Source: a virus. Taken from it: 64,000 nt of DNA. Below are positions 18,882 to 59,363 of this stretch, piece after piece (positions within the stretch are counted from its first letter, which is position 1; every line of letters begins with the position of its first letter). Where the stretch lies: IMG/VR virus record IMGVR_UViG_3300045988_060114. The stretch is one strand, 5' to 3'. Below the pieces are notes generated by a model. That model was given only the letters and a program-made list of their open reading frames with translations. It made no database searches and was not told the DNA's origin. Position numbers and translations under genes: made by a program.

Positions 18882-20045
18882 CTAGTCCTTGTCGAAGAAC
18901 TTATCAATGAGTCCCATTGCATCATTCTTCTTCTTATCTATAATCTTGGCATAAATCTCGGTGGTGGCGATTCTTGTATGCCCCATCAACTTACTGGTGG
19001 TGTAGATGTCTGCACCCAGTGTAAGCATCATGGTTCCAAAGGTGTGCCTTGCAGTATGGAAGGTAATGTCCTTCTTGATACCAGCGTTCGCTGCCCAAAC
19101 CTTGATATGAGTGAGAACCGTCTGTTCGCATCCCGTACCATTGAAGATGAACTCGTTTCCGCCCTGCTCAGGCAACCATTCTATAGCCTTGCCTGACAGA
19201 TTGTATGAAACCATCTTGTTGGTCTTCTTCTGTATAATAGATAGATGCCATGACTTAGTTCCATCCTCATTGGTTACTTCCCTGATGTCTGACCATTTCA
19301 GTCTCCTGATGTCGGAGATACGCAAACCACAAAAGCAGGAGAACATGAATGCCTGCTTGATAACTGGAACCTTGCATTCTGTTTCAGCCAGTTTCTTCAC
19401 CTCCTCAATATCCAAGAAAACCCTGCTGGTTTCGGGTTTCTTCGGCTTCTCTCGCTTATCCACCTCGCTGAATGGATTCTTGTATATCATCCCACCTTTC
19501 ACGGCTCTGCTGAGCATTTCATTGAGGTGATTGCAATACATAATCTTGGTGTAGCTGGAAAGCGGCTCTCCATTGCTCTTCTTGGTGTTGTTCAGGAACT
19601 CAATGAATCCCACACAATACTTCTTGTCAATACTGGATAGCTTGATATTATCTCCCTTGTAGGCGATGAGTTGCTTTCGGGCGCATTCTATCTGCGCTGC
19701 AATTCTGCTTGGAGACTGCGATGTCTTCATCTTATAAGTCTTGAAGTTGTCTATCCAGTCCATGAGCTTCATCTTGCTCTTGACGGACATGATACCTGAA
19801 ATGCTGTTCTTGATGTCCAGTACTCTCTGAGCCTTGATAACATTGGCGGTAGCCATTGTTTCTGCATTCTTTCTTCTTGCCTCTGCCTTACCTCTACCCA
19901 CCTCTGGTACGATGTAGAGTTTCAGAAACTCATAGGTTCTCTTGCCATCCTTGTAGATGTCTAGATAGACACTCTTGTTTCCGTTGGCAAGTTCCTTGAA
20001 TCTGATAGTGACAGGTTCTTTTTCGATTGTTTTCTTCCTTCCCAT
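18882..20045 (-). CDS. int: tyrosine recombinase / phage integrase (start trimmed to MGRKKTIEKEPV)
   Basis: C-terminal HTARHTFGTMMLTLGADIYTTSKLMGHTRIATTEIYAKI (R..H-x-x-R...H...Y) plus CGLRISD. Bacteroides-type SAM-like N-terminal domain. Confidence 0.9.
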   Translation of the reverse strand: MGRKKTIEKEPVTIRFKELANGNKSVYLDIYKDGKRTYEFLKLYIVPEVGRGKAEARRKNAETMATANVIKAQRVLDIKNSISGIMSVKSKMKLMDWIDNFKTYKMKTSQSPSRIAAQIECARKQLIAYKGDNIKLSSIDKKYCVGFIEFLNNTKKSNGEPLSSYTKIMYCNHLNEMLSRAVKGGMIYKNPFSEVDKREKPKKPETSRVFLDIEEVKKLAETECKVPVIKQAFMFSCFCGLRISDIRRLKWSDIREVTNEDGTKSWHLSIIQKKTNKMVSYNLSGKAIEWLPEQGGNEFIFNGTGCEQTVLTHIKVWAANAGIKKDITFHTARHTFGTMMLTLGADIYTTSKLMGHTRIATTEIYAKIIDKKKNDAMGLIDKFFDKD

Positions 20046-20070
20046 AAGCCTTTCTTTTATAAATCTGCTG

Positions 20071-20078
20071 CAAAGATA
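20071..20078 (-). promoter_or_regulatory. candidate -7 box (TATCTTTG) for int
   Basis: Reverse complement of caaagata, about 25 nt upstream of the ATG at 20045. Confidence 0.4.
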
Positions 20079-20090
20079 AGCATTTTTTTT

Positions 20091-20510
20091 GTTACTCGCA
20101 AGTTTTGGGTAACAAAATAGTAACAAAACTAACACGTATCTGATGTATAGGTAATGTATATCTAGCTTTCGGAAAATTAATTTTCCGAAAAGGCAAAGTG
20201 CTGATAACTAAAAGTTTAGATATACATTTGATATACATTAGGTAACAGATGGGTTAAGGTGTGCTATTTACTATCTTTATTATTCCAATATGGTTTATTC
20301 TGTCAGTTAAATATCTGATTTGTAGGTGGTTGTGAGTTTCTTTGTTTTTAGCGAGTAACAAAATAGCAACAATGAAGTGTTAATCTTTGCAAAGTAACTA
20401 ACTTGCCCACAACAAAGATAAGAATTAAATCTTATTCACAATTAATTTTCAAAAAGACTTTAACTTAGATTAACATTGTGTTATTTCGTATATCTAATGT
20501 ATATCTATTT
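20091..20510. repeat. repeat-rich non-coding region upstream of int (attP/arm-site candidate)
   Basis: AATGTATATCTA at 20153-20164 and 20496-20507, and inverted at 20217-20228. Perfect 20-nt palindrome TCGGAAAATTAATTTTCCGA at 20169-20188. GTAACAAAATAG(T/C)AACAA at 20109-20126 and 20355-20372. GTTACTCGC (20091) is inverted relative to GCGAGTAAC (20351). The 16-mer TTAATCTTTGCAAAGT at 20380-20395 is also present at 18791-18806. Confidence 0.6.
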
Positions 20511-25065: not shown

Positions 25066-28000
25066 ATGGCAGAAAGACCATTATACACTTTATACAAGAA
25101 TCTGAAAGCACAGAACTATGATGTGCCTGATGATTACAATAAGTTTGAGAGCGCCCTGACCAGAGAAGGAAAGGGCGGTGCAGATAACAGACACGCTATC
25201 TATGAGAACTTGAAGGCTCAGAACTTTGATGTTCCTGATACTTATGAGCGTTTCTATTCTGCACTTTTTGAACCTCGTAGTAAGACTTCATCTAGAGCGA
25301 AGGGCGGTAGTGTTCCTTTGAGTGCTGCTGACCGTGCTCGTTTCAATGCTAGAACTGCGGAAATCTTGTCTAGTGCTAATAATGCGGTAAGACAAGCAAA
25401 GCGAAACATTCAGACCAAACTGGGGCAAGCAAAGAAGTTTGATGGTGGCAGGGTTACTCAACGTCTAAAGAATCCTTTGCAGAATCAGAATGTACAGAAG
25501 AATGAGTTCAACTATAATGCCACAACTGGCAAGACTGGAACCTATACAACATCTGATGGAGTGGAGTTCGATAACGAGTATGATGCTACCCAGTATCAGA
25601 ATAAGTTGGACGAGCAGGGGCAGCAGTATATCAATGCTGTAAATGCTGGTGAGATACCGTCTGCTTTAGATGTGCGTGACCAGAATGGCAACTACGACTT
25701 GCAGGAGAATATTGGTAAGAATGGAACCTATCTCACTGAGGAGGGTGCTCAAAAGCAGTTTGATAAGAAACTGGCTGATGCCTATGCTCGCAAGAAGGAG
25801 ATAGAAGCTGCTATAGCGGAAGACAATCGTCAGCATGGCAATCCTCTGCTCTCTTATGGTGCTAGTATTGGTTCAAGTAACGGAAGAAATGCTGAGCAGA
25901 GTGACTATAGAAATAAGTTGGCAACCTCTCTATCTCTTGTTACTCAGCAGATTGGTGCGCTTGAAGCGGTGAAACAATACCCTACAAGTAGCTGGGGTGA
26001 GGATGCCTTGAAGGCTCTTGACAATACTGCCTTTACTGCCAAGACTTGGGATTTCGGTCTGACTGATTTTGCTACCATGGGGCAGATGGAACGTATCAAG
26101 ACAAAGATGGATAACAACATTCCTCTCTCTGGTTCTGATAAGATGCTCTTGAAGAGTAAACTGGGTGCGGATGCTGCTGCGGCTCTCGAAGATGAGAAGA
26201 TGGGTAATATCTATCGCTGGACGAAGATTGCAGGGCAGAGTCTCCCATTTATGGCTGACTTCTTCCTGACTGGTGGCTATGGTGGTATTACCAAGGGCAT
26301 CAGTCGTGGAGCCTTGAAGATTGCTGCTAAGTCTGGAATGGGCAAGGTGAGTGCTGCAATTTTGAAGAACACTGGTATCGTGGCTGGCGATGTAATCGGC
26401 TCGTATGCGATGGCTGGAACTGAACAGGCATTGAAGACTGGTGCAGACATCATGCAGCGACATCTAGGTAATCTGTATCAGGATGAGAAGGGCGATTATA
26501 AGTTCGGTACATTTGACGAAAACGGAAACCTCCTGCATGAAGGTGGTGAGTCTATGGGTACTGCTCTCTATAAGGGGCTGACCTCTGCCATGGTGGAGAA
26601 CTACACAGAGAAGTTGTTTGGTCACAACTATGGTATCAAGAAGGGTGCTGTCAACTTCATGGAGAAACATGGTATGAATGCTTCTGCTGAGTTCTTCAAG
26701 AATATCGGCAAGAGTGGTTGGTACACCAATTCTAAGAAGTGGATGGAGAAGTTTGGCATCAATGGTTTCGCTGAGGAAGTGATGGAGGAGGAAATTGGTA
26801 TTCCTCTTCATGCACTGCTGGATGGTGATAGTAAGGTGAGCGACCTTCTTGATGCTAGACAACAACTTGACATTATTGGTGGTATGGCTATCTCTGTTGG
26901 TTCTATGTATGCGATGGGTGCTGGCTCCCGACCAGTGAAGGGTGTGTACAATCGTGCTCAGTACTACCGATTCAGACACAAGTTGAACGTGGCTGATAGT
27001 GATGCACAGAACCTTATTGGCGATAACTGGGCAGACATCAAGGATAAGATTGACAATGCAACCAACGAGCAGATGGGTAGTGTACTAGCTGGCATTCTCC
27101 GTCAGAGAGATACAATGACCAAGGAACAGATTAATGCTGCTGTTAACTATGGTGTGAACCTGATGAAGATGCGTGGCTACAATATTGCCAAGACTTCTGA
27201 AATGAATGCAAGGGAGATTACCAATGAGCCTACAACTCCTGAGGAACAGCATCAAACGGATATTGATAACGCTTACTCTGAGGGGCATGATGCTGATGAT
27301 GCAGACAAACATGATATTCAGATTCAGCAGGAAGACCAGATGAAGACTCTTGCAGCAGCATTGGGTATCTCTGAGCAGCAGCTATCTGTTATGAGTGATG
27401 AGGAGTTGGAATCCTTAACTGGAAAGGATGATAAACTTGACCAAGCTATCTATGACTACCAGTTGTCTTCTGCTCGCTACCAAGGTGTGGTTGATGATGC
27501 ACAAGACAAGGTTGACCTTGCTGCTCATCAGGCAGAACAACGTGTTGATATGTACACAGACCAGAGCCGTGGCTCAGTCCGTAACGCTACCATTAAGGCA
27601 TCTGGAGGACTGGAAGACTATGGTGTCTATATTATCAGTGGCAATATCGCTACTCATGATGATGGTACTATTGATGTAAGCAATAGTGATGATATGATTC
27701 TCTATTATGACCCGACAACGAATAGTGTAGAACACGCTGATGCATTGATGTTCGCTGAACTGGGTGAGGAACTGCCTGCTGATGATGTGAAGGCTCAGGC
27801 GGTAGCTGATGCAAAAGAGGTTGCTATCAAAGAAGTGGCTGGCATCATTGACGGAACAGTTGATGTTGGCTCCCAGTTCTTGGTGACTGATGCTGACGGA
27901 ACGGAACATACTTATGAGGTGCTTGCTGATTATGGTGATGGTACTGCTGCTATTTCTATTGATGGTAATGTGGTAGAGAATCCATATTCGCTTGCCGATT

Positions 28001-31000
28001 TGCAACAGATGAAAGACTTGGAAGACAAGAAGAGATTGGAAACTGCTAAGGCTCAGCGTGAGCAGATAGAGAAGGAACGTGCTGAGCAGCAGAATCAGGA
28101 GACAGAACAGACTCAACCTTCATTTGATTTCAATCAGATTCTTAATGACAATGGAAATGTTGTCATTGTTGATGTGCTGGATAAGGATGGCAATACTAAA
28201 TATCCTGACTCTAGATTGTTCCTTATTCGTGATACTGGTGCCAAGGCTAAGGTAGTTGAGTTGAAGAGTGATGGCACTATTGTTCCTCATGCTGTGAGCA
28301 AGAAGAATGTGAGCATAATTACTTCAATGTCGCTTGATGAGTACAAGCAGGCTATGGCTGAATCCTCAATGATAGAGGATAATAGTGGAGAGAATAGAGG
28401 TGAGATAGAGGTGGAGACTCCGACAATAGAGGGCGAGACTGCTGCTCCTGCTGAGGAGACTGCTGCTCCTGAATCTGCTGAGACTCCTGCAACTGAACAG
28501 ACTCCTGCTGCTCCTTCCATTACTCTTGAAGATGGAACCATCGTGCCTATGCTGGAGGATGGCAATCCTGACTTCACGAAGCTGACTGCCGCACAGACTG
28601 CTGAGTTGTATGACTCCCAGTTTGGTGAGGATGCAGATAGTATCGTATCTGGATATGTGTCTGATGCAAAGAAGGCACTCGACAAGGCTAGCAACATGAC
28701 CGTGAAGGGTAAGACTTTCGTGGAACAGAAGGCTGCAAAGGATGCAAAGGAGAAGGCTATTGCTGATGCTCAGGCGGCTTATGACTCTGCTATCGCTATC
28801 CGTGATGCTTACAATGAGCGACAACTTGCCAAGGTGGAAGATACTGCTGAGGGTAGAAAGGAACTCATTGAGAAGGCAAGAAGAAAGTTTGCTCGCTTGA
28901 AGAGTGCAGTGAAGAATGATGCTGAGGCTGTAGCACAACTATATAAGGAGACTGTAGGCAGCTTGCTACATCGTCTGTATGATGGCACTGGCATTGACGT
29001 GACAGATACGATTCCGCTTACTGCTGAGGAGTATGTGGCTAGTAATCTCGGTGCTCACTCTCTCAACTATGAGGGTACTGAGACAAGCAAAGGTGTTAAG
29101 CAAGAGACTGGATTGAGTAGAGAAGACTTTGCCAAGACCCAGTTGCTCGCTGCTGATGGCAAGGGTACTACTATTGACAACCTCGTACATAGCTTGTGGG
29201 AGAATCGTCCATCTAACCTTGATTCACTCGACACTCAGAATATTCGCAATGCCTTGCTCAGCATAATCACTAGCGGTTTCAAGGCATCGGAAGCAAGAAA
29301 TTACATTGAAAATCTCCGTATCGCTCAGGCTGAGAATATCCTTGAAGAGCAGAAGAAGGCGGCTGATAACGCTGCATTCGCTGAGGAGAAGACTGGGGAA
29401 GAGAACTCTGATGAGGAGAATGATGAGGAGAATGAGAAGATAAATGAGCAGACAAATGAGAATATAAATGCTCCTGAGGTTCCTGAGGATGCAACGGATG
29501 ATACTCCTTTAGGCGCACAGCGTGATGAATCAGACCTTCCTTTCTCTGCTAAGGAGAATGGCAAGCAGCAGACAACTGCCGAGCGTGCTGCTGATGTAGA
29601 GAAGAATAAGGTGGATGATATGAAGGTCGTTGACAATATCGTGGGTGAAAAGACTCGAAAGGCTTTCGAGAGACTGGCTAAGATGATGGGTGCTGCCATT
29701 CAGTGGCAGTACTCTGACAAGTTGGGTAACGGCTGGATTCAGGAGACCAAGGATGCTGATGGCAACGTTCATCGTACCATCTTCATTACTCTTGACTCTT
29801 CTATCACGGAAGGTGCTCAGTTTATCTTCGGTCATGAAATGACTCACCAAATCAAGAATCTGAACCCTGCTGCATACAATGAGTTGACTCAGCTTGTGCT
29901 TGATACCTATGGCTCTGATGCCTTCGACAAGGCGGTAGGTGAGACCATGCAAAGATATTCTGATGCTGGATTCTCTGGACGTGCTAGAGATTACTATGCT
30001 GAGGAGGTTGTTGCTGATGCGGTAGGTGAAATGATTCGTGACCTCAACTTGGCTCATACTCTCGCTATGAAGATGTCTCATCCTCTACTCGCTGCTATCC
30101 ATGAGATATTGCAGAAGATTAAGTTGGCATTCTTTGGCACTGAGTATAGCGATGTGACCAAGAACATCATCCGCTCCATTGAACAAGCCTACGTGAAGAC
30201 TGCCAATGGGGAGGTGACAAACTCCGAGACTGGTGAAGATGTTTCCTTCTCTCTCCGTCAAAAGCCTGAACCTAAGAAGAAGGGCATCGGCTACAAGGTG
30301 TTCGTATTGAAGGATGGCAAACTCTATCCACCTATGGTAGCGAACCCTAATGGTGCTGCTACTCCAGTTGGTGTGTGGCTCGATGCTGATGCGGCTCCTA
30401 TTGCAGGAGAAAGCAAGACTGGAAGACCTCAGGTTAAGCAGGGCGGCAAGGGAACACAAGGCGGTAGCGGTAAGTTAGCCTATAGACCAGGCTGGCATCT
30501 TGGTGTAGTGCCTTATGCTATCCAGTTTAACCGCAAGGATGCTGAGGGCAACAAGACTCTCTTCCCTAAGAACTTTGTCTTCGCTGAGGTGGAGTATGCT
30601 GCTGACGTTGATTATCAGGAGGAAGCTCGCCAAGAGGGTATCAATCCATCGGGCAAGTATCAGCATTCACTCGCTGGCTTGAAACATCTGCCTACTGATG
30701 GTTTCTATATGTATCGTACAAACCCGAACCCTGAGACTGACCCTTGGGTGATTACTGGTGCGATGAAGGTGAACCGTATCTTGACCAGAGCAGAGCAAGC
30801 GGAACTTGTGAAGAATGCTGGTCGTGAACCTCAGCAGATTCAGGAGGGCGATATTGTTACTGATGATGTTGTGAACAGCATCAATCAGGAGATAGCTGAT
30901 GCTCCTAAGTTCTCGTTAAAGGTATATCATGGTAGCGGTGCTGACTTTACAGAGTTTGACTTCGACCACATGGGTGAGGGTGCTGGCTCCCAAGTATTCG

Positions 31001-34000
31001 GTTGGGGTGGCTACGTTACTTCATCGGAAGAGATAGGAAAAAGCTATGCTAATCTTTCAAGAGATTATGGCAGCAGAAACATATATAAGGGCGATATTCC
31101 GTTGACCAAGTTGGAAAAGGCTGCTTTGAGTTCATTCATTGAGAACAACAAGAATCATGAAGGGACATTCAAGGAAGGTGTTGCTGGTTCTATCGAGCGA
31201 CAAAAGGCATTGATTGCTAAGCATCCGAACAATCCTCTTTCTAATAGTATCAAGAAGAGAATTGAAGTATTGGAGGGTGCTATGCCTAAACTGGATAGTA
31301 TCTCTTGGGATGATTTCGTTCCAAGTGGAAAGAACCTCTATGAGGTAGATATTCCTGAGGATAATGGCAGTAACTATCTGGAATGGGAGAAGAAACCATC
31401 TGATGAGGTTGCAACAAAGATAATTGAAGGTCTTTATGGCTTGGATGCTAAGACCCTTGATGATATGGCATCAAAGGATATTGTGTTCAGAACTCTGTTG
31501 TATGATTACATCAAGAATGCAGACAAGGAGCAGATGATTCCACTCCTTGTGAAGACTCATGCTCTAACTAGGGAAACTACCTATGACAATGGAAATGTTG
31601 AGGATGATATACGATTTGTGTACAATCGTTTATCTAGATGGATGGGCAGTCAAAAGGCTGCAAGCCAGTTCCTATCTTCTCTTGGTTTTACTGGCATCAA
31701 GTACCCTGCTGGAACAATCATGGGCGGTGTTGAAGGAGACGAAATCAACTATGTTATCTTCAAACCTGAGGATATGAAGATTACAGAACATACCAAGTTC
31801 TCCATCAAGACCTATCATGGCTCCCAAGCATCATTTGACAAGTTCGACCACTCCTTTATGGGTAGCGGTGAAGGTGCTCAGGCTTACGGCTGGGGTACTT
31901 ATGTGAGCGAAGTGGAAGGTATCGCCAAGGCTTATGCCAAGGCAAATGCAAAAAAGAATGCGCCTTCAAGACTGATGTATCAAGGTAAGCCTATGACGTA
32001 TAAAACTCCATCAATTATCTATCAAGTTGCCCTTGATATGGATAAGTTTAATATTTCCGCAAAAGAGGCTATATCAAAGATGATAGATGCTGATGAGAAG
32101 AAACTTGCATCCGTTGGCGACACCCCATTTGCGAAGATGAAAGCCAAACAAGTTCAAGATGAGTTGAAAGTTTTGAAAGATTTGAATCCTTCTGACTTCA
32201 AGATTAATGAGGACTATGATACTGTCGCACAGGATTTGATAGATACAAAGTCTGGTCTTGATTTATTGGAGGATGAGTTGAAAGATGCAAAATCCTATGT
32301 AGATTTGTACCAATCAAGACTTGATGAGGCTAAGGAAGAACTTTCAAAGGCAAAGGAAAGTGGCACTGGTTTAGGTGTTGATATGTATGAATCTGATGTT
32401 GAGTATTATAGCGAACAGGTTAAAAGATATAAGCAGAGTATAAAAACTAAGGAAAGTGACATCAAAGATGTAAAAACTAAGGTTGACGCTTTGCAGAAGA
32501 AGTTGGATTCCATGGAGAAACCACGCAACCTCTACTCTGTTGATATTCCTGATGATACTGGTCGCAACTACATCGGCTGGGATGAGCCTTTAGGTGCTGC
32601 TAAGATTATGCGTCTGCCAAAGGTATTCAAGGCTGATGGCTGGGAGTACAAGAAGGTTGGTATGTATGATACTTACAAGATTGATGGTAACGAACATGAG
32701 GTTTGGCTTGAACCAACTTTGACTACTGGCAAGGAACTTTATAGAGATTTGACGAATGCCCTAGGTAGCGACAAGGCTGCAAGCGAATTTCTCTCCAAGG
32801 CTGGCTTTGTCGGTGTGAAGGTTATCGCTCAGCGTAATACTGGCGGCAACAAGGAAGGCAAGATGAACTATGTTATCTTTGATGAGAACAATGCTCAGAT
32901 TACCAGTCATACCAAGTTCTCGTTGAAGAAAGATGGCTTGACTCCTGAGATAGCAAATACTCCTGTAAATATTGTTGATGCTGATGAGGAACATGGCTTT
33001 AAGAACTATGCTGAGGCAAGAGAATGGGCTAAGAAGAATATTGTTAGAACTTACAATGATGAAGAAACTGGTGGCAAGGGTGAGATTAATATCAGTAATA
33101 CTGCTGTTGGTAAGTATTTGTCTGAAAAGGCAGTTAAGAAGAGTGCAAACAAAGATGTACACATGAGCGTTTTGAAGGTCTTGCCTTCTATACTTCGTGA
33201 GAGTGTAGATGCTATTCAGCATGTTGACCGTAACAAGGTAGGAAATGAACGTAGTGAGGATTTTGGTGTCAATCCTGATGTTATGATACATCGTTGTTAT
33301 GGTGCGGTGAATATAGGCGATAAGGTCTATGGTGTAAAGATTACTTTGAAAGAGAATGTAAGAACACACGAAAAAACAAAGCTATATAGCTATGAAGCAA
33401 CAAAAATAGAGCTGCTGGACGGTCAAAGTGGAGACGTAGCTATGACCTCTCCCCGCAATTCCAACAACTCTATTACGGTTGCAAAGATAATAAAAGGTTT
33501 TGAAACTACCAAGAAAAATGGCGAAAAGTTTTCATTGAAGGATGAAAAAACTCTTGCAGGAGTGCATAACATTACTGAGGAGAAACTGAGAAAGGCTTTG
33601 AAGCTGGGTGGATTTGCCAATCCTTCTTTGGCTGTGATTGATACCAACAAGACTGCTCACGACAACTTTGGAGAGATTTCCTTCATCGCTCCTTCTGCCC
33701 TTTTGGATAAGCGTACTGGCAATACTGGCGGTACTTGGATAACTGATGCCTACACTCAACGTTATCCTTCCGTAGAGCGAGAAATGAGTGAAAAAGGGTA
33801 TCGGAAGTTTGAAGACTGGGTTGATAGCCTTGATTACCCAAGTGTAGCTAAGGCTGAGATTGAGAGACAGGCAAAGGATGCCCTGAGCGACAATAATGCT
33901 CCTGCTTGGGAGTTGATGTACTTGAAGGAAAAGGGTATTGATATTAAGGAGTATGATTCTAGAATTGATTATCGCTGGAAAGAGATTATCAGTGACCATC

Positions 34001-37000
34001 CTACTGCTGAGGATATTCTGAATAGTATGAAGACTGACCCTGAACTGAATAAAAAGGTTACAAGTCTGGCTAAGCATGCCATCATCCATCCTACTTGGGA
34101 AAAGGTTTCTTTGGAGGTAAGAAGAAAGATGTATAAGGAGACTGGCGTTAAGGCTAGCCCTATCAATCCACAAGTAAGAAAACAGACTAAGGAAATCTTT
34201 GAGCGTGACTATGCGCCAACCTTGCTTAACAAGGACGGCAGTCCAAGAAAAAAAGATGTGAAGAAGGTTGTTGGGGATATTGTGAAGGAGCACAACGATA
34301 CCAAGAAGTATAACTTCTATCTGTCTAAGGTGAAGGCTAGTAATTACGTCAACAAGAATGGTCTTTATGATGATTACATCAGATGGCAGGAGAACAAACT
34401 GGATGAGTTCGGAACGAAGAACCGTATCTTCCGTGGCTATACTAAGGATGGTTCCCGAAAGTATGTGCCTGAGACTCTTGAAAATGTTTCAAAGGCTATG
34501 AGGGAAGAAGCAGATGGGCAGACCAATGGAAGTGAATATACCTCGTTTGGTAGCTTTATCGCAAAGTTGGCTAGTCGTGTTGATTCTACAGACGAAATGC
34601 GTGCCAACAAGGATAAGTTGTCTTCTAATAAGGATAAGGAAGAGTTTTACGAGAAATGGAATGGGGTTTATTATGACCTTGCCAAGTTCTTGTATAATGA
34701 TGTGTTTTATGGCGAGCAGAGACTTCACGATATTGTATTGCAGTCTGACCCTAAGAAGTATGCCAAGAAAGAATATGGCATTACCCTTACTCCTACCTTT
34801 ATGAAGAAACTGGATGCCTTGAAGAATGCAGTACAGACAGAGTTGAAGAGTGCGTACTTTGAGACTAAGTACAACAGACCTCTACGCCTTAATGAGTTTG
34901 CTGCTGCTGTGGTTCCTGATAACTTGGGCGAAGATGTGCGCAAGGGTATAGAGAATGCTGGCTTACCAATGTATGACTACGACCCGAATAAGGAAGGTGA
35001 CCGCAGTCGTGCCTTCAATGAAGCTATAAATAGCAGCGACAATATCCGATTCTCTCTTGCTGGCGAGCGTGGTGCGGCTGCTGCTGACAAGGCAGAGGAG
35101 CGTACTGCTCGTATGGATAATCTCTCTGTGGCTCGCAAGATGGAAGAGGAGAAGAAGGATGCCAAGGCAATCAAGATGGCTACTGGTTGGGAGCGTGGTG
35201 CTGATGGCAAGTGGAGATACGAAATGCCTGATGCCAAGATAAAGGACACGATGGACGTAGGCGGTGGGCACATCGTTAAGCGTTACGAGGATGATATGCT
35301 CTGGAATGGTGGTAAACTATCTAATGTGATTGATGCACCTGAATTATTTAAGGCTTATCCCCAGTTGAAAGATGTGCGTATTGATACGGATGCCATTATG
35401 AACGATATGCCTTCAAATGGTGAATATAATTCAAAGACCAACACCATTACCATTCATGCTGATGAGTTGAAATATATGAATGGCATATTGAATCACGAGA
35501 TTCAGCACGTTATTCAGGATATTGAAGGCTTTGCCAAGGGCGGTAGTCCTAGATTGGTTAGAGGTGAGGTCAAGAAGAGGTTTGATGAGGTCACCAAACA
35601 GATTAAGCAGCTACGTGCAGAAGGTAAGGAAGATGAAGCAAAGACTCTGATTGAGAAGAACAGAGGTCTTTATAATGCTTATCAGAAGAATGATGATTTC
35701 AATAGTTACAAGTCTCTTGCTGGCGAGGTGGAAGCTCGTAACGTATCTGCCCGATTGAACATGACTCCTGAGGAGAGAAGAAAGACTCTCGCTGAATCTA
35801 CTGAGGACGTGGCTCGTAAAGACCAGATTTTCTTGGGCGTGGGCGATGTGTCCTTCTCTCTACGTGATATGGCTGACGGAAAGGAGAGTGGGGCGGCTGA
35901 TATGGCTGAGGATTTGAAGAGTCTGAACACTCCTGATGAGGTGGATGATGCTATCAAGACTGCCATTGATGATATGCCGAGCGGTTGGCAGATGGCTAAC
36001 AAGAAGATGATTCATATTGCTCAGGCTCTGGGCGAGAACCGCAAGGCAGAGATTTCTGGCGAGGAACCTAAGTTCTCCCTGAAGGCTGGCACTCTCATTA
36101 AGGCTGGAACCTACTTTAGTGGTGGCGGTCTTGTTGAGGAAGGCTTGAAGGGTATCATCGACCCAGTGGTGGCAGTGGAGTATGACGAGAAGATAAGCGG
36201 TGTATATCGCAACAACTTCGGGCAGCACATTGTTACTGCTGATGTTCGTGATGTAGACCCTAAGGAGTTGGTGAAGCAGATAGATGGTGAGGTGGAGTAC
36301 TTCCATGCCAGCCCAGTCTGCAAGAACTACTCTCAGGCAAAGAGTAACCACGCAGAGGTGGAACTTGACAAGGAGACTGCTGCTAGTACTGCCGAGTTTA
36401 TCAATGCCGTTAAGCCAAAGGTGGTGACTATTGAGAACGTGAAGGGGTATAAGGATTCGGAAGCGATGAAGACTATTACCGATGCTCTGGATGCCAACGG
36501 CTATACTTGGGATGCAGATGTGTATAACGCTGCTGACTATGGCGGCTACACAAACCGAGAGAGATTGATTGTCCGTGCGGTTCGTGATGGCAAACTTCCT
36601 GCCAAGCCAAAGAAGATGGCACGCAAGAGTGGATGGTATGAAGCTGTGGCTGATATTATCCCGACCCTGACCGAGAAGAAGAATGGCGTGGCTCCTTGGA
36701 TGGATATTCGCTTGAAGGCTGATGGCATTGACTGGAGAAACATTGACAAGCCATTATATGTGATGGGTAGTGCCTATGCTGACGGAAAGATTCCTCATGC
36801 CTTCGCTGACGAACTGCTGCCAACACTCCGAACCAAGAGCGGTGATGTAATTGTGATGCCTGATGGTAAGGTATATCGTGCCATGGGCAGAGTGCTCGCT
36901 AGAGTATCAGGAGTGAGCGATGATTACAAGATGCCATTCTCCGAGAATCTGAGCCATACCATCATCGGCAACGGAATACCTACCCAGTTGACCGAGCATG

Positions 37001-40000
37001 TTATTGCTCCTCTGCTTACTGGCTCTGACCCTAAGTTTAGCATCCGTACCTATCATGGTACTGGTGCTAGCTTCGACAAGTTCGATTTTAGCCACATGGG
37101 TGAAGGCGAAGGTTCACAAGCATTTGGCTGGGGTGGTTATGTTACTAACTCTAAGGAAATTGCTGAGGACTACACAAGACGTGCCAAAATGAGAAAAAAT
37201 AATGGCGGCTTTGAATTTGTGACAGATTTGTCTGACAGCAACAAAGATATGGTAAGACACTATATCTATAAATATAAAGATGTAGATAAGGGATTGGATG
37301 CTATGAGAAAAGACCTTTCTTCTGCTCTAGAAATGTTCCCTGATGATGATAATTTGAAGGAACTTAGCGATATTCTTGCAAAGAAGAATGAGGAAATAGC
37401 TGTTCCTGATGATATTGCTTATCTTTACGATGTGGATATTCCTGATGATAATGGAGATTATCTTGACTGGGAGAATAAATTGAAAAAATCTCATTTGAAC
37501 AAGGTAAATAAGGAGTTGGTTAGAATTGGCAAGGAACCTATTGAGGCCATTTATCCAAGTCGTGTTGATGGTAAGGTAAGAGGTCAAGACCTATACGATG
37601 AACTTTCCTCTATGCTTGGTTCTAAAGAAGCAGCTAGTAAGTTGTTAAGTGATGCTGGCTTTGTTGGTATTAAATACCCTGCTGGAACCATCTTTGGAGG
37701 TGCAAAGAAAGATGATTACAACTACGTGATATTCGATGAGAACAATGCCAATATCGTGGGTAATACCAGATTCTCCTTGCGCTATGACCAGTTTGAGCAT
37801 GACCTGAACCAGTGGAAGAAGGATAACAACCTGCCAAAGGATGCACAGCGACCAACCATCCCACAACGCAACGCTGGTGAGAGTGCCGTTGACTTCCTGA
37901 AGAGAGTGGACGAGTATCGCAAACAGATGGCTCTGTGGAAGACTGCTCCAACCTACGAGCAGCATCTTTTGAGTGATGATACTGCCCTTGGAGAGTTTAA
38001 CCGAGAGTTGCAGCGTGGTTCTGTACTCAAACGTATCGCCTTCCAAGATAGTATGCTGGCTATCCGCAAGGCTCAGGAAGCTATCATGAAGGAAGTGGGT
38101 GTTGACCGCCTGAATATGGCTGAGGATGCCTATACTGCCGAGAACAGAAGTCACGGCAAAGGAAAGAACGAGTTTGAGGAGTACAACAATGAGTTCTTGC
38201 AGCCATTGAGAAAGGCTTATCATCAGATGAAGAAGATACTGGGTGACAGCTATGATAATGTCCGTATCTACATGATGGCTAAGCATGGCTTGGAGCGTGA
38301 TGCTCAGATGGCTTTCAAGAAGTCACTGGATGCAGACTTTGAGGACGTGGCTCAGAGAAGTGCGGCATACAGGGCTTACAAGGGCGATATGAACCGTATT
38401 ACCAATGATAGCGATTTGGAGTTTGGCAGAGTGGATTTCAATACTTGGAGACAGAGAGATAACGCACTTAGAACGAAATACTCTCCTTCCTATATGGACT
38501 ATCGCTATGATGAGAATGGTATCGCCTACGATTACTCAGGCTTATCGGCTCTCTTCGGTGGCTCAGACTTTGAGGAAGCTGCCCACAAACTGGTAAGGGA
38601 TATTGAGAGTAGTCATGTAGCTGAGGTGCAAGACCTCTGGAATGCTACGAATGCGGCTACAAAGAAGATTCTCCGTGATGGCTATAAGGCTGGCATGATG
38701 AGCAAAGATACTTATCTGTATGTGCGTGATATGTATAGCCATTATATTCCTCTCCGTGGATGGGATGGCACTACTGCCGACCAAGTATGGGACTATGTAG
38801 GTGGTGGCAAGGGTGCGTTCAATCAGACATTGAAGACCGCACACGGACGTACCTCTATAGCTGATGACCCTATCGCTTACATCGAGAATATGGCAGAGAG
38901 TGGAATCCTGCTGAACAACAAGAACTGGGTGAAGCAACACCTGATGCTCTTGGCTCAGAATCATCCAACCTCTCTTCTCACCCTGAGCAAGGCTTGGTAC
39001 GTGAAGAGTACGGATGCCAACGGCAACGAGGAGTGGATTCCTGCTACACCTCAGATTACTTCTCAGATGAATAGCAATCAGGTGAAGGCTACCATTGATG
39101 CTTTCGAGCAGAAGATGGAGAATATGGCTCAGACTGGCGATGCTACCCAGCAGCGAGAAGGCTTGAACATAGCCTATCCTCAGACTCATAGCGAGGAGAG
39201 AGAACATGAGGTAAGAGTGATGAAGGATGGCGAGGAGTATGTTATCTATGTGAATGGTGACCCGCAGTTGGCTCAGGCGATGAACAATACTAGAGCACAC
39301 CGAGTGAGAGAGATTCAGAGCGGCAAACTGGATAGGGCTGCTGCTTGGTTGGGCAGAAAGATGGCTGCTGCCTATACCAGTCTTTCACCTCTCTTCATTC
39401 CTTCCAACTACTTCCGAGACCTGACCATGACGCTGGCATCTACCGCTATTCGTGAGGATGGCAGATACAACTATCTGCTAAGAAAGAATCTTGCTACCTC
39501 TTGGAATCTCGGTTTCATGCTGAGAGACTATCAGAACGGCAAGTTGAGAGATAAGGTAAACAACGGAAACGCTACTCCAAAGGAACAGATGTTCTATGAC
39601 TTCATGATGAATGGTGGCGAAACTGGCTTTGTCTCTTCGCTTGATGTGGAAGACTTGAAGAAGAAATTCAAGAATGACTTGAAGGATTTGGATAGATGGA
39701 AGGCGAACCCAGTAAAGGTAGGGCACACCATCATGGATAGTATCGAGTTCCTGAACAGAATGATTGAGGATAGTAACCGATTTGCGGTTTACATGACCTC
39801 TATTCAGTATGGACGTTCTATTGATGAGGCTGTGAATGATGCCAAGGACGTAACATTGAACTTCAACCGCAAGGGTACTGGCGAATATGGCTGGCAGATG
39901 ATTAGAAACCTCTATCTCTTCATCAACCCAGCAGTACAGAGTTTACAGACATTGGGTGCGCTTGCCAAACATCATCCGTTCAAGTTCACGGCTGTTACTG

Positions 40001-57821: not shown

Positions 57822-59363
57822 ATGAAGAAAAGTAACAAATTTAATCGGCTGCTTTCTATCTTTATGATGGTTATGGCAGTTATTTTTGGAGTGAATGGTC
57901 AGGTTATCATGGCTGAGGCGGCTCTGCCTGATGGCGGTAGTACCGAGAGTGGTCACGCTGCGGAGGCTGGTGGTGCTACTGCTGCCGATGATGCTGGCAA
58001 TGGCGGTGCTGCTCGTCAGGATGATGGTATTGCTACCGAAACCAAGGGTCGTGAGCATTATAACGAGAATGGCACGGAGTTCTATGAGAACGACATCAAC
58101 GATAAGATTACCAAGATTCGTCCGATGGCTACGCCAGTTGACCAGATTTCACGCTATGCTACAACTAAGTCTGCTGGCTCGTTTGTAGTTGAGTATTGGA
58201 GTATTGGTACACGTCCTATCAAGACTACCGTCAAGGAGACTACATTGGAAAGTACTGGTACATCTATGGTATTGAAGGTAGAAGACCCTGAAATGTTTAC
58301 GCTGGATGATACCATCCGAGTGGTAGGTGTTAAGGCGATTACCAACTACAAGAATCAGGCTTATGCAGACCTTACCGATGAACCTACTCCTGATTTGGAA
58401 CTTTGTGTGTGCGGTAAGGATAATGAGGGTTATCCTATTGTGTTTGCGGTAAATGGCAAATTGGTTAAGAAGCAGCCTATTGGTATTCCAGCCTTACAGA
58501 AGGGTCAGAAACTTATCCGTATGGCTAAGAGTTGCGGTGAGTTGGACGTACAGACGGGTCGTTTCAACAACCTTCCTGATTCTGATGTTCAGTACTGCCA
58601 GAACTTCATGATTCAGGTTGAGGAGAGCACCTTCAATAAGATTGCTGCTAAGCGAGTAGATTGGGACTTCTCTGACATCGAGGAGGATAGTATCTACGAT
58701 ATGCGTCTTGCTATGGAGGGTACTTATCTCTTCGGTGATATGGCTTGTATCAAGCATACTACCAAAAACAACTCTACTCAGTGGTTTACAAAGGGTATCT
58801 GGTGGATGGCTGGTAAGGACATTGAGGTAGGTCATGTTGCTACTGCTGACGATATAAAGAAGGGCTATGGTAAGAATGAGCGAGTGATTACAGACTTGGA
58901 GTTGGTTGACATTTCCAAGGACTTGTTTGTTGGTACTGGTATCGGCAACAAGCGCAAGGTGATTATCGCTGGCTCTGCCTTTGTGAGTGCATTCAGTAAG
59001 ATTGACTCTGACAAGTTCCGCTTGAAGGACACCGTAGAGGTTTGGGACTTGAAGTTCAAGAGTTGGGAGACCGACTTCGGTGAGGTGCTGATGATTCACT
59101 CTGAGTTGTTTGACCTCTTCGATATGAGTGACTGCGGCTTTGCCCTTGACCCTGAGTTCTTGGTTAAGCGAGTACACTTGTCTTGGACACGTAACGTGCT
59201 CGACTTGAAGAAGGCTGGCATCCGTAACACCGATGCAGTAGTTATTCAGGAGGTAGCTTGTCTGTACTTGAAGTACCCTAAGGCACACGCTCGTATGCGC
59301 CTTGCTGCGGTTCCTGCAACAGAAAGTGCAACTGATACAGAAGAGACCAAGGCTGCTGCCTAA
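57822..59363 (+). CDS. putative major capsid protein (alternative start 57909)
   Basis: Large ORF between the scaffold-like gene and a strong terminator. The hydrophobic N-terminus of the long form is atypical. Confidence 0.55.
   Translation: MKKSNKFNRLLSIFMMVMAVIFGVNGQVIMAEAALPDGGSTESGHAAEAGGATAADDAGNGGAARQDDGIATETKGREHYNENGTEFYENDINDKITKIRPMATPVDQISRYATTKSAGSFVVEYWSIGTRPIKTTVKETTLESTGTSMVLKVEDPEMFTLDDTIRVVGVKAITNYKNQAYADLTDEPTPDLELCVCGKDNEGYPIVFAVNGKLVKKQPIGIPALQKGQKLIRMAKSCGELDVQTGRFNNLPDSDVQYCQNFMIQVEESTFNKIAAKRVDWDFSDIEEDSIYDMRLAMEGTYLFGDMACIKHTTKNNSTQWFTKGIWWMAGKDIEVGHVATADDIKKGYGKNERVITDLELVDISKDLFVGTGIGNKRKVIIAGSAFVSAFSKIDSDKFRLKDTVEVWDLKFKSWETDFGEVLMIHSELFDLFDMSDCGFALDPEFLVKRVHLSWTRNVLDLKKAGIRNTDAVVIQEVACLYLKYPKAHARMRLAAVPATESATDTEETKAAA

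What the first reader, a model, noticed from the sequence alone, without database searches (positions are those of the whole stretch)
29542..37782. Recurrent [KR]FS[LI][KR] junction motif brackets every recognisable module of the giant protein
- Eleven copies of F-S-[L/I/A]-[K/R/A] occur between aa 1493 and 4239:
  - FSAK 29542
  - FSLR 30247
  - FSLK 30910
  - FSIK 31798
  - FSLK 32917
  - FSLK 33529
  - FSLA 35050
  - FSLR 35854
  - FSLK 36073
  - FSIR 37036
  - FSLR 37771
- Seven are preceded by K or R, and two share the context DVSFSLR.
- I found none in the first roughly 1,490 or last roughly 1,190 residues.
- They fall at the boundaries of zincin 1, an unknown 218-aa module, HGS copies 1 and 2, a 204-aa module, a 507-aa module, zincin 2, a 73-aa segment, the MTase domain and HGT copy 3.
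- A four-residue pattern recurring only at domain junctions is not explained by composition.
- It could be a proteolytic processing signal, with the polyprotein cut by the embedded zincins or a host or phage protease. It could instead be a conserved inter-domain beta-strand or docking element.
Basis: seen in the sequence. Interest (0 to 1): 0.75.

Follow-up and report, generated by a model that had tools for sequence, protein, structure and literature searches.

The report
Junction peptide in giant phage polyprotein
A 5,431-residue injected "polyvalent" protein of a Prevotella prophage is built from swappable effector cassettes, each starting with the same short peptide [KR]-[FY]-S-[LI]-[KR], which is probably where a built-in zinc protease cuts the chain, although no cutting has been shown.

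Summary
All 11 F-S-[LIA]-[KRA] sites lie at the stated coordinates in one ORF (25066-41361, 5,431 aa). Shuffling expects 0.5.

The protein is a phage polyvalent protein (Iyer et al. 2017) in a Prevotella/Segatella copri prophage. All seven Pfam-recognised domains in the array start 2-31 aa after a motif.

- **Conservation:** Codons vary freely while the peptide does not, so selection acts on the peptide.
- **Cassette structure:** In 80 related phage genomes the same motif delimits about 25 cassette families. These are present, absent or replaced in a colinear array.
- **Breakpoints:** DNA homology breakpoints fall on the motif in about 80% of informative comparisons.
- **Spread:** Twenty divergent giants that share the first cassette, a conserved gluzincin (FGHExxH…EExxAD), carry 3-14 copies each. 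Four cultured-phage giants that share only the C-terminal region have no zincin and at most one copy.
- **Structure:** AlphaFold places the motifs in low-confidence linkers at the N-terminal edge of folded domains. Homologous domains elsewhere lack the motif, so it is not intrinsic to the folds.

Best explanation (about 45%): it is a MARTX-like inter-effector processing site cut by the embedded zincin, and it also marks where cassettes are exchanged. Cleavage is inferred, not shown. I rate it a new variant of a known kind.

The parts
25066..41361 (+). Giant polyvalent-protein gene (5,431 aa)
   Evidence: ORF list. Pfam hits: LPD14 (weak), three ART-PolyVal, LPD3, PBECR5, LPD23, DNA_methylase, LPD38.
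25066..29541 (+). Motif-free N-terminal region (aa 1-1492). It ends in an acidic low-complexity linker.
   Evidence: No FS motif. Only a weak LPD14 hit. One weak YSLA at aa 974.
29542..29553 (+). Junction motif 1, LP-FSAK (aa 1493)
   Evidence: Lies in a pLDDT<50 segment of the AF2 model. Conserved as LPFSA[KR] in relatives.
29542..30246 (+). Cassette E: zincin 1, a gluzincin-like metallopeptidase (HEMTH at 29833-29847). It is the first cassette in nearly all relatives.
   Evidence: AF2 gives a 3-strand sheet followed by the HExxH helix. FGHExxH and EExxAD are invariant in 31 homologs. Present in most of the 81 arrays. No Pfam or PDB sequence hit.
30247..30258 (+). Junction motif 2, VS-FSLR (aa 1728)
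   Evidence: Follows the disordered linker 236-248 of the model, and S-L form a short bridge at the edge of folded cassette C.
30247..30909 (+). Cassette C: a 221-aa domain of unknown function (GYKVF…RPGWH), phrog_30118
   Evidence: AF2 pLDDT is about 90.
30910..30921 (+). Junction motif 3, PK-FSLK (aa 1949)
30910..31797 (+). Cassette A: ART-PolyVal copy 1
   Evidence: Pfam PF18760 starting at aa 1951
31798..31809 (+). Junction motif 4, TK-FSIK (aa 2245)
31798..32916 (+). Cassette A: ART-PolyVal copy 2
   Evidence: cassette clustering
32917..32928 (+). Junction motif 5, TK-FSLK (aa 2618)
   Evidence: Lies in a low-pLDDT zone just before the well-folded LPD3 domain.
32917..33528 (+). Cassette U: LPD3 module (204 aa)
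   Evidence: Pfam PF18798. AF2 pLDDT >85 for model residues 41-200.
33529..33540 (+). Junction motif 6, EK-FSLK (aa 2822)
   Evidence: pLDDT about 50.
33529..35049 (+). Cassette D: PBECR5 predicted RNase plus about 300 aa more (507 aa in all)
   Evidence: Pfam PF18814
35050..35061 (+). Junction motif 7, IR-FSLA (aa 3329)
35050..35853 (+). Cassette G: LPD23 plus zincin 2 (HEIQH at 35494-35508)
   Evidence: Pfam PF18838 and a weak DUF6782 metallopeptidase hit
35854..35865 (+). Junction motif 8, VS-FSLR (aa 3597)
35854..36072 (+). Cassette F: 73-aa segment
36073..36084 (+). Junction motif 9, PK-FSLK (aa 3670)
36073..37035 (+). Cassette B: C5 cytosine DNA methylase
   Evidence: Pfam PF00145, E=3.6e-28
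37036..37047 (+). Junction motif 10, PK-FSIR (aa 3991)
37036..37770 (+). Cassette A: ART-PolyVal copy 3
37771..37782 (+). Junction motif 11, TR-FSLR (aa 4236), the last motif
   Evidence: In relatives the last motif always lies 1,190-1,377 aa before the C-terminus.
37771..41358 (+). Constant C-terminal region (about 1,195 aa, LPD38, hydrophobic segments). It is shared with giant proteins of many phages.
   Evidence: Pfam LPD38; phrog_14770 and phrog_616; 338 phage records

Best explanation
**Shown.** The giant ORF encodes a phage polyvalent protein. It has a motif-free N-terminal part (about 1,490 aa), a central array of ten effector or enzyme cassettes, and a constant C-terminal part (about 1,195 aa).
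- Every cassette begins with the peptide [DEN]-x-[TPIV]-[KR]-[FY]-S-[LI]-[KR].
- The peptide is under strong purifying selection at the amino-acid level.
- It lies at the C-terminal end of flexible linkers, immediately before the next folded domain.
- It is the point at which cassettes are gained, lost, duplicated and replaced among related Prevotella phages.

**Inferred.** The peptide is an inter-effector processing site.
- After the polyprotein is made, packaged or injected, the conserved gluzincin of the first cassette (E; FGHExxH…EExxAD), possibly helped by zincin 2, binds each junction as an extended strand and cuts there.
- The cut is most plausibly just before the invariant Phe/Tyr, which would then be the P1' residue. 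This is what thermolysin-type zincins prefer (my own knowledge).
- Cutting would free the ADP-ribosyltransferases, RNase, DNA methylase and other modules from the N- and C-terminal parts.
- Because every cassette carries the same short signal at its start, any cassette dropped between two junctions stays processable. That would explain why exchange boundaries coincide with the motif.

In operation this resembles a MARTX toxin, with conserved ends, a swappable effector array and an embedded autoprocessing protease. It also resembles a eukaryotic-virus polyprotein.
For: - **Enrichment:** 11 observed against 0.48 expected, and 7 against 0.02 for the strict form. It is the top de novo k-mer.
- **Position:** 7 of 7 Pfam domain starts lie 2-31 aa after a motif, against 0 of 200,000 random placements.
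- **Peptide-level selection:** In the window the Ser codons are TCT/TCG/TCC/TCA/AGC and Leu uses six codons. Over 100 junction types the third positions of S, L and K carry 0.2-0.7 bit, while Ser is invariant and the first position is only F or Y.
- **Conservation across relatives:**
  - Eighty viral loci carry 4-13 motifs (one short fragment has a single copy), and the final motif is 1,195-1,210 aa from the end wherever the gene's 3' end is held.
  - A 70%-identity Prevotella lineage has 15, mostly EK[FY]SLK.
  - Twenty divergent giants have 3-14 each, against 0.3-0.8 expected.
- **Cassette boundaries equal the motif:**
  - The same upstream flank is joined to at least seven different downstream cassettes, and the reverse also holds.
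  - DNA homology ends within -1..+13 nt of the Phe codon in about 83% of pairs that share upstream DNA. It starts within -12..+6 nt in about 80% of pairs that share downstream DNA.
- **Not part of the folds:**
  - Homologous ART, LPD3 and zincin-2 domains elsewhere have VREHR, MSFGEP or VRRQII at these positions.
  - Standalone or DUF4406-fused module-C proteins lack the motif.
  - AF2 gives low confidence at motifs 1, 3, 5 and 6 next to well-folded domains.
- **Candidate protease:**
  - Cassette E has zincin topology.
  - Its catalytic motifs are invariant in 31 homologs down to about 26% identity.
  - It occupies the first slot in almost all arrays.
  - It occurs almost only in giant proteins.
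- **Co-occurrence:** Twenty of 20 giants with a close E zincin have at least 3 motifs. Four of 4 cultured-phage giants that share only the C-terminal region have no HExxH zincin and at most one motif.
- **Other proteases:** I found no prohead protease in the parts examined around the capsid and portal genes, and the motif is absent from other window ORFs.
- **Literature:** Iyer et al. 2017 independently proposed that zincin MPTases process polyvalent proteins into functional units (PMC5512222).
Against: - No cleavage has been observed. Everything about proteolysis is inference.
- The co-occurrence of zincin and motif is confounded by shared ancestry.
- Many giants with a remote E-like zincin (for example P0258, P0274, P0276) have no such motif and no other recurrent motif. 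A zincin therefore does not imply this site.
- The zincin might instead attack host proteins.
- At cassette C the S-L of the motif is predicted to form a short beta-bridge with the domain. Some standalone C homologs keep 'GSIR' there. A small structural contribution is therefore possible.
- In some lineages an FSLR also occurs inside the zincin E domain itself.
- Cutting at every site would also release 32-73-aa fragments of no obvious use.
- The alternating pattern K-F-S-L-K is also what an amphipathic edge strand or a chaperone-binding site looks like.
Confidence: 0.45

Rival explanations
1. Processing site, but cut by a different protease. This could be a host cytoplasmic or envelope protease, or a phage protease encoded outside the window. 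The embedded zincins would then be effectors aimed at host proteins.
For: - All evidence that the peptide is a junction-specific signal under peptide-level selection applies equally.
- Iyer et al. note that MPTases could also act as effectors.
- Remote E-like zincins occur in giants without the motif.
Against: - I found no prohead or other protease gene in the parts examined around the capsid and portal genes, and no other window ORF carries the motif.
- The four zincin-less giants lack the motif.
- I know of no host protease with this specificity.
Confidence: 0.12
2. Uncleaved structural element. The peptide is an amphipathic beta-strand that caps the start of each cassette or docks it to its neighbour. 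It would keep a 600-kDa beads-on-a-string protein ordered for packaging.
For: - The alternating basic-aromatic-polar-aliphatic-basic pattern fits an edge strand.
- The S-L of motif 2 forms a short bridge at the edge of cassette C, and strands are predicted at motifs 5 and 6 with low confidence.
- In ART cassettes the motif directly precedes the V-Y-H-G-S strand.
Against: - Four of five modelled motifs have pLDDT of about 50 or lower.
- More than 25 unrelated cassette families carry the same peptide, while the same domain families in other lineages have unrelated residues there.
- The motif is not found between domains inside the N- or C-terminal parts or inside the multi-domain cassette D.
Confidence: 0.18
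3. Binding site for a common trans-acting factor that does not cut. One candidate is a host Hsp70/DnaK-type chaperone, whose sites are a hydrophobic core flanked by basic residues (my own knowledge). It would grip the chain at each cassette start, ratchet it out of the tail and refold the cassettes. Another candidate is a capsid or portal component that organises packaging.
For: - The sites are periodic, linker-located, basic-flanked and hydrophobic, one at the start of every cassette.
- The protein has only 2 Cys in 5,431 residues. This is consistent with a chain that must unfold and refold.
Against: - Invariant Ser and near-invariant Phe/Tyr are far more specific than promiscuous chaperone sites need.
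- Zincin-less giants that face the same ejection problem have no such motif.
- No partner has been identified.
Confidence: 0.1
4. Recombination joint only. The motif is a DNA microhomology (consensus AAG TTC TCN TTG AAG) that mediates in-frame cassette swapping, and the peptide itself has no function.
For: - Homology breakpoints pile up on the motif.
- TTC is used at 78% of junction types, and Ser is TCN in 97 of 100 types against about 55% gene-wide.
- The arrays are highly mosaic.
Against: - Third codon positions of Ser, Leu/Ile and Lys/Arg are almost free (0.2-0.7 bit), yet non-synonymous changes are nearly absent. A neutral peptide would drift.
- The TCN bias is explained by common ancestry, because a TCN-to-AGY switch needs two changes through a non-Ser codon.
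- Eight or so conserved bases are a weak recombination substrate.
- Some rearrangements use other microhomologies (cassette I).
Confidence: 0.07

Closest known systems
Polyvalent proteins of phages and conjugative elements (Iyer, Burroughs, Anand, de Souza, Aravind 2017, PMC5512222)
   Same: - It is a multi-domain injected protein with ART-PolyVal, PBECR, LPD3/14/23/38, a DNA methylase and zincin metallopeptidases.
- It sits in a phage context.
- Processing into functional units by the zincin was predicted for the class, and mosaicism was noted for Helicobacter prophage proteins.
   Different: - The paper names no junction or cleavage motif and does not discuss boundaries.
- Here a specific peptide marks every cassette start and the exchange points.
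- The first-slot zincin (cassette E) matches no Pfam model.
MARTX toxins of Vibrio (multifunctional autoprocessing repeats-in-toxin)
   Same: - Size is about 5,000 aa.
- Conserved N- and C-terminal regions flank a central array of modular effector domains that differ between strains through recombination.
- An embedded protease processes the toxin at multiple sites, with Leu at P1 (PMC5218395 abstract; PMC2900308; PMC6315884 reference list).
   Different: - The MARTX protease is an InsP6-activated cysteine protease, and the site is little more than a Leu.
- The toxin is secreted by a bacterium into eukaryotic cells.
- Here the candidate protease is a gluzincin, the site is a 5-8-residue motif, the carrier is a phage and the target is a bacterium.
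- There is no sequence homology, and cleavage is not shown here.
Demarcation motifs of polymorphic toxins (VENN in CdiA, PxxxxDPxGL in Rhs; from my own knowledge)
   Same: A short conserved peptide marks the boundary at which variable toxin cassettes are recombined onto a constant scaffold. In Rhs it is also an autoproteolytic site.
   Different: - Those systems have one junction per protein (constant part, then one variable tip) and orphan cassettes downstream.
- Here there are 3-15 junctions per protein in a colinear array.
- No orphan cassettes carrying the motif lie next to the gene.
Viral polyproteins with consensus protease sites (picornavirus 3C, potyvirus NIa, coronavirus Mpro; from my own knowledge)
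   Same: One ORF encodes several enzymes separated by a short consensus site, and the protease is embedded in the same chain.
   Different: - Those are eukaryotic RNA viruses with fixed gene order and essential replication proteins.
- Here the units are optional, swappable accessory effectors of a tailed dsDNA phage.
Nup98/Nup145 H-F|S autoproteolysis (from my own knowledge)
   Same: An invariant Phe-Ser dipeptide, with Ser as a possible nucleophile.
   Different: Nup98 cleavage needs a specific folded domain upstream of the site. Here the upstream domains are unrelated to each other, so domain-driven self-cleavage is unlikely. I considered this and set it aside.

Membership tests
Polyvalent proteins (Iyer et al. 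2017) | Many (2-15 or more) unrelated effector, enzymatic and LPD domains in one polypeptide | tested here: met
   Pfam finds three ART-PolyVal, LPD3, PBECR5, LPD23, DNA_methylase, LPD38 and a weak LPD14. There are also two HExxH zincins.
Polyvalent proteins (Iyer et al. 2017) | Encoded by a phage or a conjugative element | tested here: met
   Integrase, large terminase, portal, tail fibre and SU10-like capsid protein are present. Relatives are IMG/VR viral contigs and Prevotella/Segatella prophages.
Polyvalent proteins (Iyer et al. 2017) | Delivered into the recipient cell with the DNA (packaged in the virion) | not testable with these tools
   Indirect only. [quoted passage not shown] In cultured Bacteroides phages the homologous giant gene sits next to the portal gene.
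Polyvalent proteins (Iyer et al. 2017) | Processing by an embedded zincin MPTase (predicted for the class) | not testable with these tools
   The catalytic motifs are conserved, but no cleavage data exist.
Autoprocessing multi-effector toxins (MARTX-like), functional analogy only | Conserved terminal regions flanking a variable effector array | tested here: met
Autoprocessing multi-effector toxins (MARTX-like), functional analogy only | Embedded protease domain conserved in all members | tested here: met
   Zincin E occupies the first slot and its active-site motifs are invariant. It is not a CPD cysteine protease, so there is no homology.
Autoprocessing multi-effector toxins (MARTX-like), functional analogy only | Cleavage between effectors at defined sites | not testable with these tools
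   A conserved inter-cassette motif lies in predicted linkers. Cleavage has not been observed.
Polymorphic-toxin demarcation motif (VENN/Rhs type), analogy | The conserved peptide coincides with recombination boundaries of variable cassettes | tested here: met
Polymorphic-toxin demarcation motif (VENN/Rhs type), analogy | Orphan cassettes downstream that carry the motif | tested here: not met
   No FS[LIV][KR] occurs in any ORF flanking the giant gene.
Prohead-protease maturation sites | The same site occurs in capsid, scaffold or portal proteins, and a prohead protease gene is present | tested here: not met
   The motif is absent from the capsid protein, portal and other ORFs. No protease was found in the ORFs examined next to the capsid gene and downstream of the portal.

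The most novel reading that the evidence does not exclude
A tailed phage uses a true polyprotein strategy.
- A ~600-kDa virion-delivered precursor is cut by its own gluzincin at a dedicated consensus site ([KR]|[FY]-S-[LI]-[KR]) into ten or more separate anti-host effectors.
- The same short site acts as a universal plug-and-play joint, so any effector cassette can be recombined into the array and still be released.
- Cutting before Phe/Tyr would also give each released effector a destabilising N-terminal residue (bacterial N-degron). This would set a built-in timer on the effectors.
Probability: 0.35. Interest if true: 0.85.

Novelty: new variant of a known kind. Interest (0 to 1): 0.66.

Why it matters
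**A testable version of an old prediction.** Polyvalent proteins are a large, almost wholly uncharacterised arsenal that phages and conjugative elements inject into bacteria. Whether and how they are cut into working units has stood as an untested prediction since 2017. A defined consensus site next to a conserved candidate protease turns that into a simple experiment, using a peptide or a two-cassette substrate with and without the HExxH mutation.

**Practical uses if confirmed:**
- It would give a rule for parsing these giant ORFs into functional effectors. Unknown cassettes such as C, U, J, K and L become discrete candidates for anti-defence functions.
- It would be an example of polyprotein logic in a dsDNA phage.
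- It could supply a compact, orthogonal protease-and-site pair for engineering.

**Value even without cleavage.** The motif-delimited cassette array documents rapid effector turnover in abundant prophages of the human-gut bacterium Segatella/Prevotella copri.

Tried and rejected
- **DNA- or RNA-level signal:** Rejected as the main cause. Synonymous positions vary.
- **Prohead-protease site:** No protease gene in the ORFs examined next to the capsid gene and downstream of the portal, and no motif in other ORFs.
- **Motif as part of the ART-PolyVal fold only:** Rejected. It also precedes LPD3, PBECR5, LPD23, the methylase, module C and many unknown cassettes. Distant ART domains have VREHR instead.
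- **Homolog searches that failed:** The 3,000-aa query timed out.
- **Alignment A2:** Built from full-length homologs, it was too poorly aligned to use. It was replaced by the trimmed fragments in A3.
- **Structure comparisons:** Sequence search of PDB for cassettes E and C found nothing useful. Fold search of the E+C model gave only weak zincin-like hits, the best being 4l7a at E=0.04.
- **Known phages:** There is no near-identical DNA in known phages. Cultured relatives share only the C-terminal region, so no published proteomics could be tied to this family.
- **Literature:** Searches found no description of the motif.
- **A second junction motif in distant clades:** I looked for one ([IV]R[EF]x[RK], for example VREHR, VRFFR, TRFLR). 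It recurs at ART starts and ends, but it was too degenerate to establish. The de novo k-mer scan found no strong recurrent motif in remote giants.
- **Nup98-like F|S self-cleavage:** Considered and set aside because the flanking domains are unrelated to each other.

Full report
**1.

The window holds one ORF of 5,431 codons (25066-41361, + strand).
- Shuffling the protein gives 0.48 such sites on average, and none of 5,000 shuffles reaches 11.
- The strict [KR]FS[LI][KR] occurs 7 times against 0.02 expected.
- The whole protein has only 15 FS dipeptides. All lie between aa 1493 and 4236.

**2. What the protein is**

Pfam identifies a polyvalent protein in the sense of Iyer et al. 2017 (PMC5512222). 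It also has two HExxH zincins.

The surroundings are a temperate tailed phage, with integrase, large terminase, portal, tail fibre and an SU10-type major capsid protein. Relatives are IMG/VR viral contigs of 35-68 kb and prophages in Prevotella/Segatella copri genomes.

The seven domain envelopes that Pfam recognises in the central region start 2, 2, 31, 4, 10, 14 and 2 residues after a motif. None of 200,000 random placements of eleven sites achieves that.

**3. Selection acts on the peptide, not the DNA**

At the eleven sites Ser is encoded by TCT, TCG, TCC, TCA and AGC, and Leu by six codons. Over 100 distinct junction types from 88 genes:
- The third positions of the Ser, Leu/Ile and Lys/Arg codons carry only 0.2-0.7 bit.
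- Ser is invariant, and the preceding residue is only Phe or Tyr.

The consensus DNA is AAG TTC TCN TTG AAG. The near-exclusive use of TCN for Ser (97 of 100) fits common descent of the junctions, because switching to AGY needs two substitutions through a non-Ser codon. No other real ORF of the window carries the motif.

**4. The motif delimits exchangeable cassettes**

A scan of viral contigs with the start of the C-terminal region returned 80 loci that are 92-100% identical there.
- In every locus that holds the 3' end of the gene, the last motif lies 1,195-1,210 residues before the stop.
- Upstream there is an array of motif-delimited segments of discrete lengths.
- Cutting at the motif and clustering the 698 segments gives about 25 families in a colinear order. 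Families are present, absent, duplicated or replaced: E(zincin 1) - C - A(ART)×0-2 - [J/L/K/Q/U/R/S/P] - [H/N] - D(PBECR5) - [M/O] - G(zincin 2) - [F/I] - B(methylase) - [A/T].
- Among 277 unique junction 28-mers, one upstream flank (for example NSINQEIADAPK) is joined to at least seven different downstream cassettes. One downstream flank (for example SKPVRFEAGKKL) follows at least five different upstream cassettes.

At the DNA level I compared pairs of junctions:
- Pairs that share upstream but not downstream sequence stop matching within -1..+13 nt of the Phe codon in about 83% of cases.
- Pairs that share only downstream sequence start matching within -12..+6 nt in about 80%.

These pairs are not independent events, so the figures describe where homology ends rather than a count of crossovers. 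Segments that looked 'merged' mostly contain Tyr or near variants such as YSLR, FSFK and LSLR.

**5. How far the motif extends**

- A Prevotella lineage only 70% identical in the C-terminal region has 15 motifs, mostly EK[FY]SLK. Four or five of them head tandem ~190-aa cassettes.
- A full scan of 1.8 billion representative proteins with zincin E found 188 relatives. Nearly all are giants of 2,000-6,200 aa with the zincin at about residue 1,400-2,000.
- The twenty giants with the closest zincin (37-95% identity) all have 3-14 motifs against 0.3-0.8 expected. They share the architecture: a motif-free N-part, an array, and a last motif usually 1,190-1,377 residues from the end.
- Their pooled logo is [DEN]-[DNHG]-[TPIV]-[KR]-[FY]-S-[LI]-[KR].
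- Module C, a widespread unknown domain, is preceded 14 residues upstream by [FY]S[ILV][KR] in many other multi-domain proteins (80 sites against 6.9 expected). Standalone and DUF4406-fused versions lack it.
- Giants with only a remote E-like zincin have no comparable recurrent motif.
- Four giants of cultured phages share only the C-terminal region: Bacteroides phages BKO1-TP3, BS-TP4 and BF1-TP2, and Vibrio phage 252E42.2. They have no HExxH zincin, no E, C or G cassette and at most one motif.

**6. Is it part of the folds?**

I ran two AlphaFold models with alignments of homologs.

*aa 1480-1960 (mean pLDDT 81)*
- Motif 1 lies in a segment with pLDDT below 50.
- Motif 2 comes directly after a disordered linker. 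Its S-L form a short bridge at the edge of the well-folded cassette C.
- Motif 3 is in a low-confidence tail at the end of the fragment.

*aa 2590-3040 (mean pLDDT 69)*
- Motif 5 lies in a low-confidence zone just before the confidently folded LPD3 domain.
- Motif 6 has pLDDT of about 50. The PBECR5 part was poorly modelled, so that junction is uninformative.

Independent of the models, the same domain families in other lineages carry unrelated residues at the motif position:
- ART starts with VREHR-V-YHGS instead of KFSLK-V-YHGS.
- The zincin-2 cassette starts VRRQIIGERG instead of IRFSLAGERG.
- LPD3 starts MSFGEPYDYEKYP.

The motif is therefore a lineage-specific signature laid over the N-termini of many unrelated domains. 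It is not a structural requirement of any of them. It is also absent between the domains of the N- and C-terminal parts and inside the multi-domain cassette D. It marks functional units, not every domain boundary.

**7. The candidate protease**

- Cassette E has the zincin layout, a three-stranded sheet followed by the helix that carries HEMTH.
- Fold search gives only weak zincin-like matches, the best being 4l7a at E=0.04. Neither Pfam nor PDB sequence search recognises it.
- In 31 homologs down to about 26% identity, FGHExxH and a downstream EExxAD are invariant. This is the pattern of an active gluzincin.
- E is the first cassette in almost every array.
- I found no prohead protease in the parts examined around the capsid and portal genes.

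**8. Interpretation**

*Shown:* a peptide under strong purifying selection marks the start of every exchangeable cassette, sits at the end of flexible linkers, and coincides with the homology boundaries of cassette exchange.

*Inferred:* it is the site at which the polyprotein is cut into its effectors, most likely by zincin E.
- Iyer et al. proposed such processing for the class but named no site.
- Thermolysin-type zincins select mainly the residue after the cut, usually a bulky hydrophobic one (my own knowledge). That would fit a cut before the invariant Phe/Tyr, with a tolerant preceding position (K/R about 80%, also P or S).
- The closest working analogy is a MARTX toxin: about 5,000 aa, conserved ends, a recombining effector array, and an embedded protease with multiple processing sites and Leu at P1. 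The protease class, site and biology differ.
- The coincidence of a demarcation peptide with recombination boundaries also recalls VENN in CdiA and the Rhs motif (my own knowledge).

I put about 45% on the zincin-processing reading and about 12% on processing by another protease. The remaining estimates are:
- about 18% on an uncleaved structural or docking strand;
- about 10% on a non-cutting binding site, such as a chaperone ratchet;
- about 7% on a pure DNA joint.

**9. Limits**

- No cleavage data exist.
- The zincin-motif co-occurrence is confounded by ancestry.
- Remote E-like zincins occur without the motif.
- The AlphaFold confidence at junctions may be lowered by shallow alignments and fragment ends.

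**10. Novelty**

The class (polyvalent proteins) and the idea of zincin processing are known. A defined junction peptide that delimits and joins cassettes, tied to a conserved and previously unmodelled zincin, was not found in the literature I could search. I rate it a new variant of a known kind, with moderately high interest because it makes a long-standing prediction directly testable.

Noticed in passing
window 1-64000 (integrase 18882-20135 -, TerL 53804-55984 -, capsid protein 57822-59363 +, portal 60527-62563 +): The window is most of a temperate phage of about 65-68 kb that infects Prevotella/Segatella copri. A 98%-identical copy lies in an uncultured Prevotella assembly and a 95% copy in the S. 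copri HDE04 chromosome. The major capsid protein is of the SU10 type. There is no near-identical DNA among 50,697 deposited phage genomes.
   Followed up: partly
window 30247-30909 (cassette C, aa 1728-1948): This 221-aa domain of unknown function has a very conserved core (GYKVF…YPPM…RPGWHLG…YRTNP). It is widespread as a standalone ~300-aa protein and as fusions to DUF4406 (PF14359) or an XkdF-like protease domain (PF14550). It matches phrog_30118 and has no PDB relative. AF2 models it confidently as a mainly beta fold.
   Followed up: partly
window 25066-41361: The 5,431-residue protein has only two cysteines. They are the catalytic PC-motif Cys of the methylase at aa 3752 and one in LPD3 at aa 2744. 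This is an extreme depletion, and it might relate to passage through the tail or envelope.
   Followed up: no
L164 (Prevotella sp. UBA746), giant ORF aa ~1109-2010: There are four or five tandem ~185-200-aa cassettes, each beginning KENGEKYSLKEVND. This looks like a recent tandem amplification of one cassette bounded by the motif.
   Followed up: no
related loci, e.g. L001, L010, L016 (cassette 'I', 32 aa); compare window 35050-36072: The 32-aa cassette I starts FSLA-GERGAADMAEDL. It looks like a hybrid of the start of cassette G (FSLA-GERGAAAADKAE) and the interior of cassette F (…ESGAADMAEDL). That would be a deletion of zincin 2 through a different microhomology, so not all rearrangements use the motif.
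   Followed up: partly
window 37783-41358 (C-terminal ~1,190 aa): This region has homologs (23-33% identity) in giant proteins of 338 deposited phages. They include Stx-converting phages of E. coli, Vibrio and Ralstonia phages, a Methanosarcina virus, and cultured Bacteroides phages where the giant gene lies just upstream of the portal gene. It is probably the conserved virion or ejection part of the protein.
   Followed up: partly
window 27985-27996 (aa 974, VENP-YSLA-DL): A weak Tyr/Ala variant of the motif sits in the otherwise motif-free N-terminal region. It is conserved in two relatives (P0232, P0234). It is probably not a junction, but I did not examine it further.
   Followed up: no
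relatives P0248, L007, L016, L020, L034, L038 (61 aa before the end of zincin E): In one sub-lineage an FSLR (DLAQK-FSLR-LNHP) occurs inside the helical part of zincin E itself. This is a non-junction occurrence. If the site is cleavable it would be a self-inactivating cut.
   Followed up: no
distant homologs P0028-P0120 (ART-PolyVal flanks): Polyvalent proteins of another clade have [IV]RE[HQ]R just before V-YHGS, and [IVT]RF[FL][RK]T right after the ART domain and before a HEYxHLW zincin. This may be an analogous basic-x-x-basic junction signature, but it is too degenerate to establish here.
   Followed up: partly
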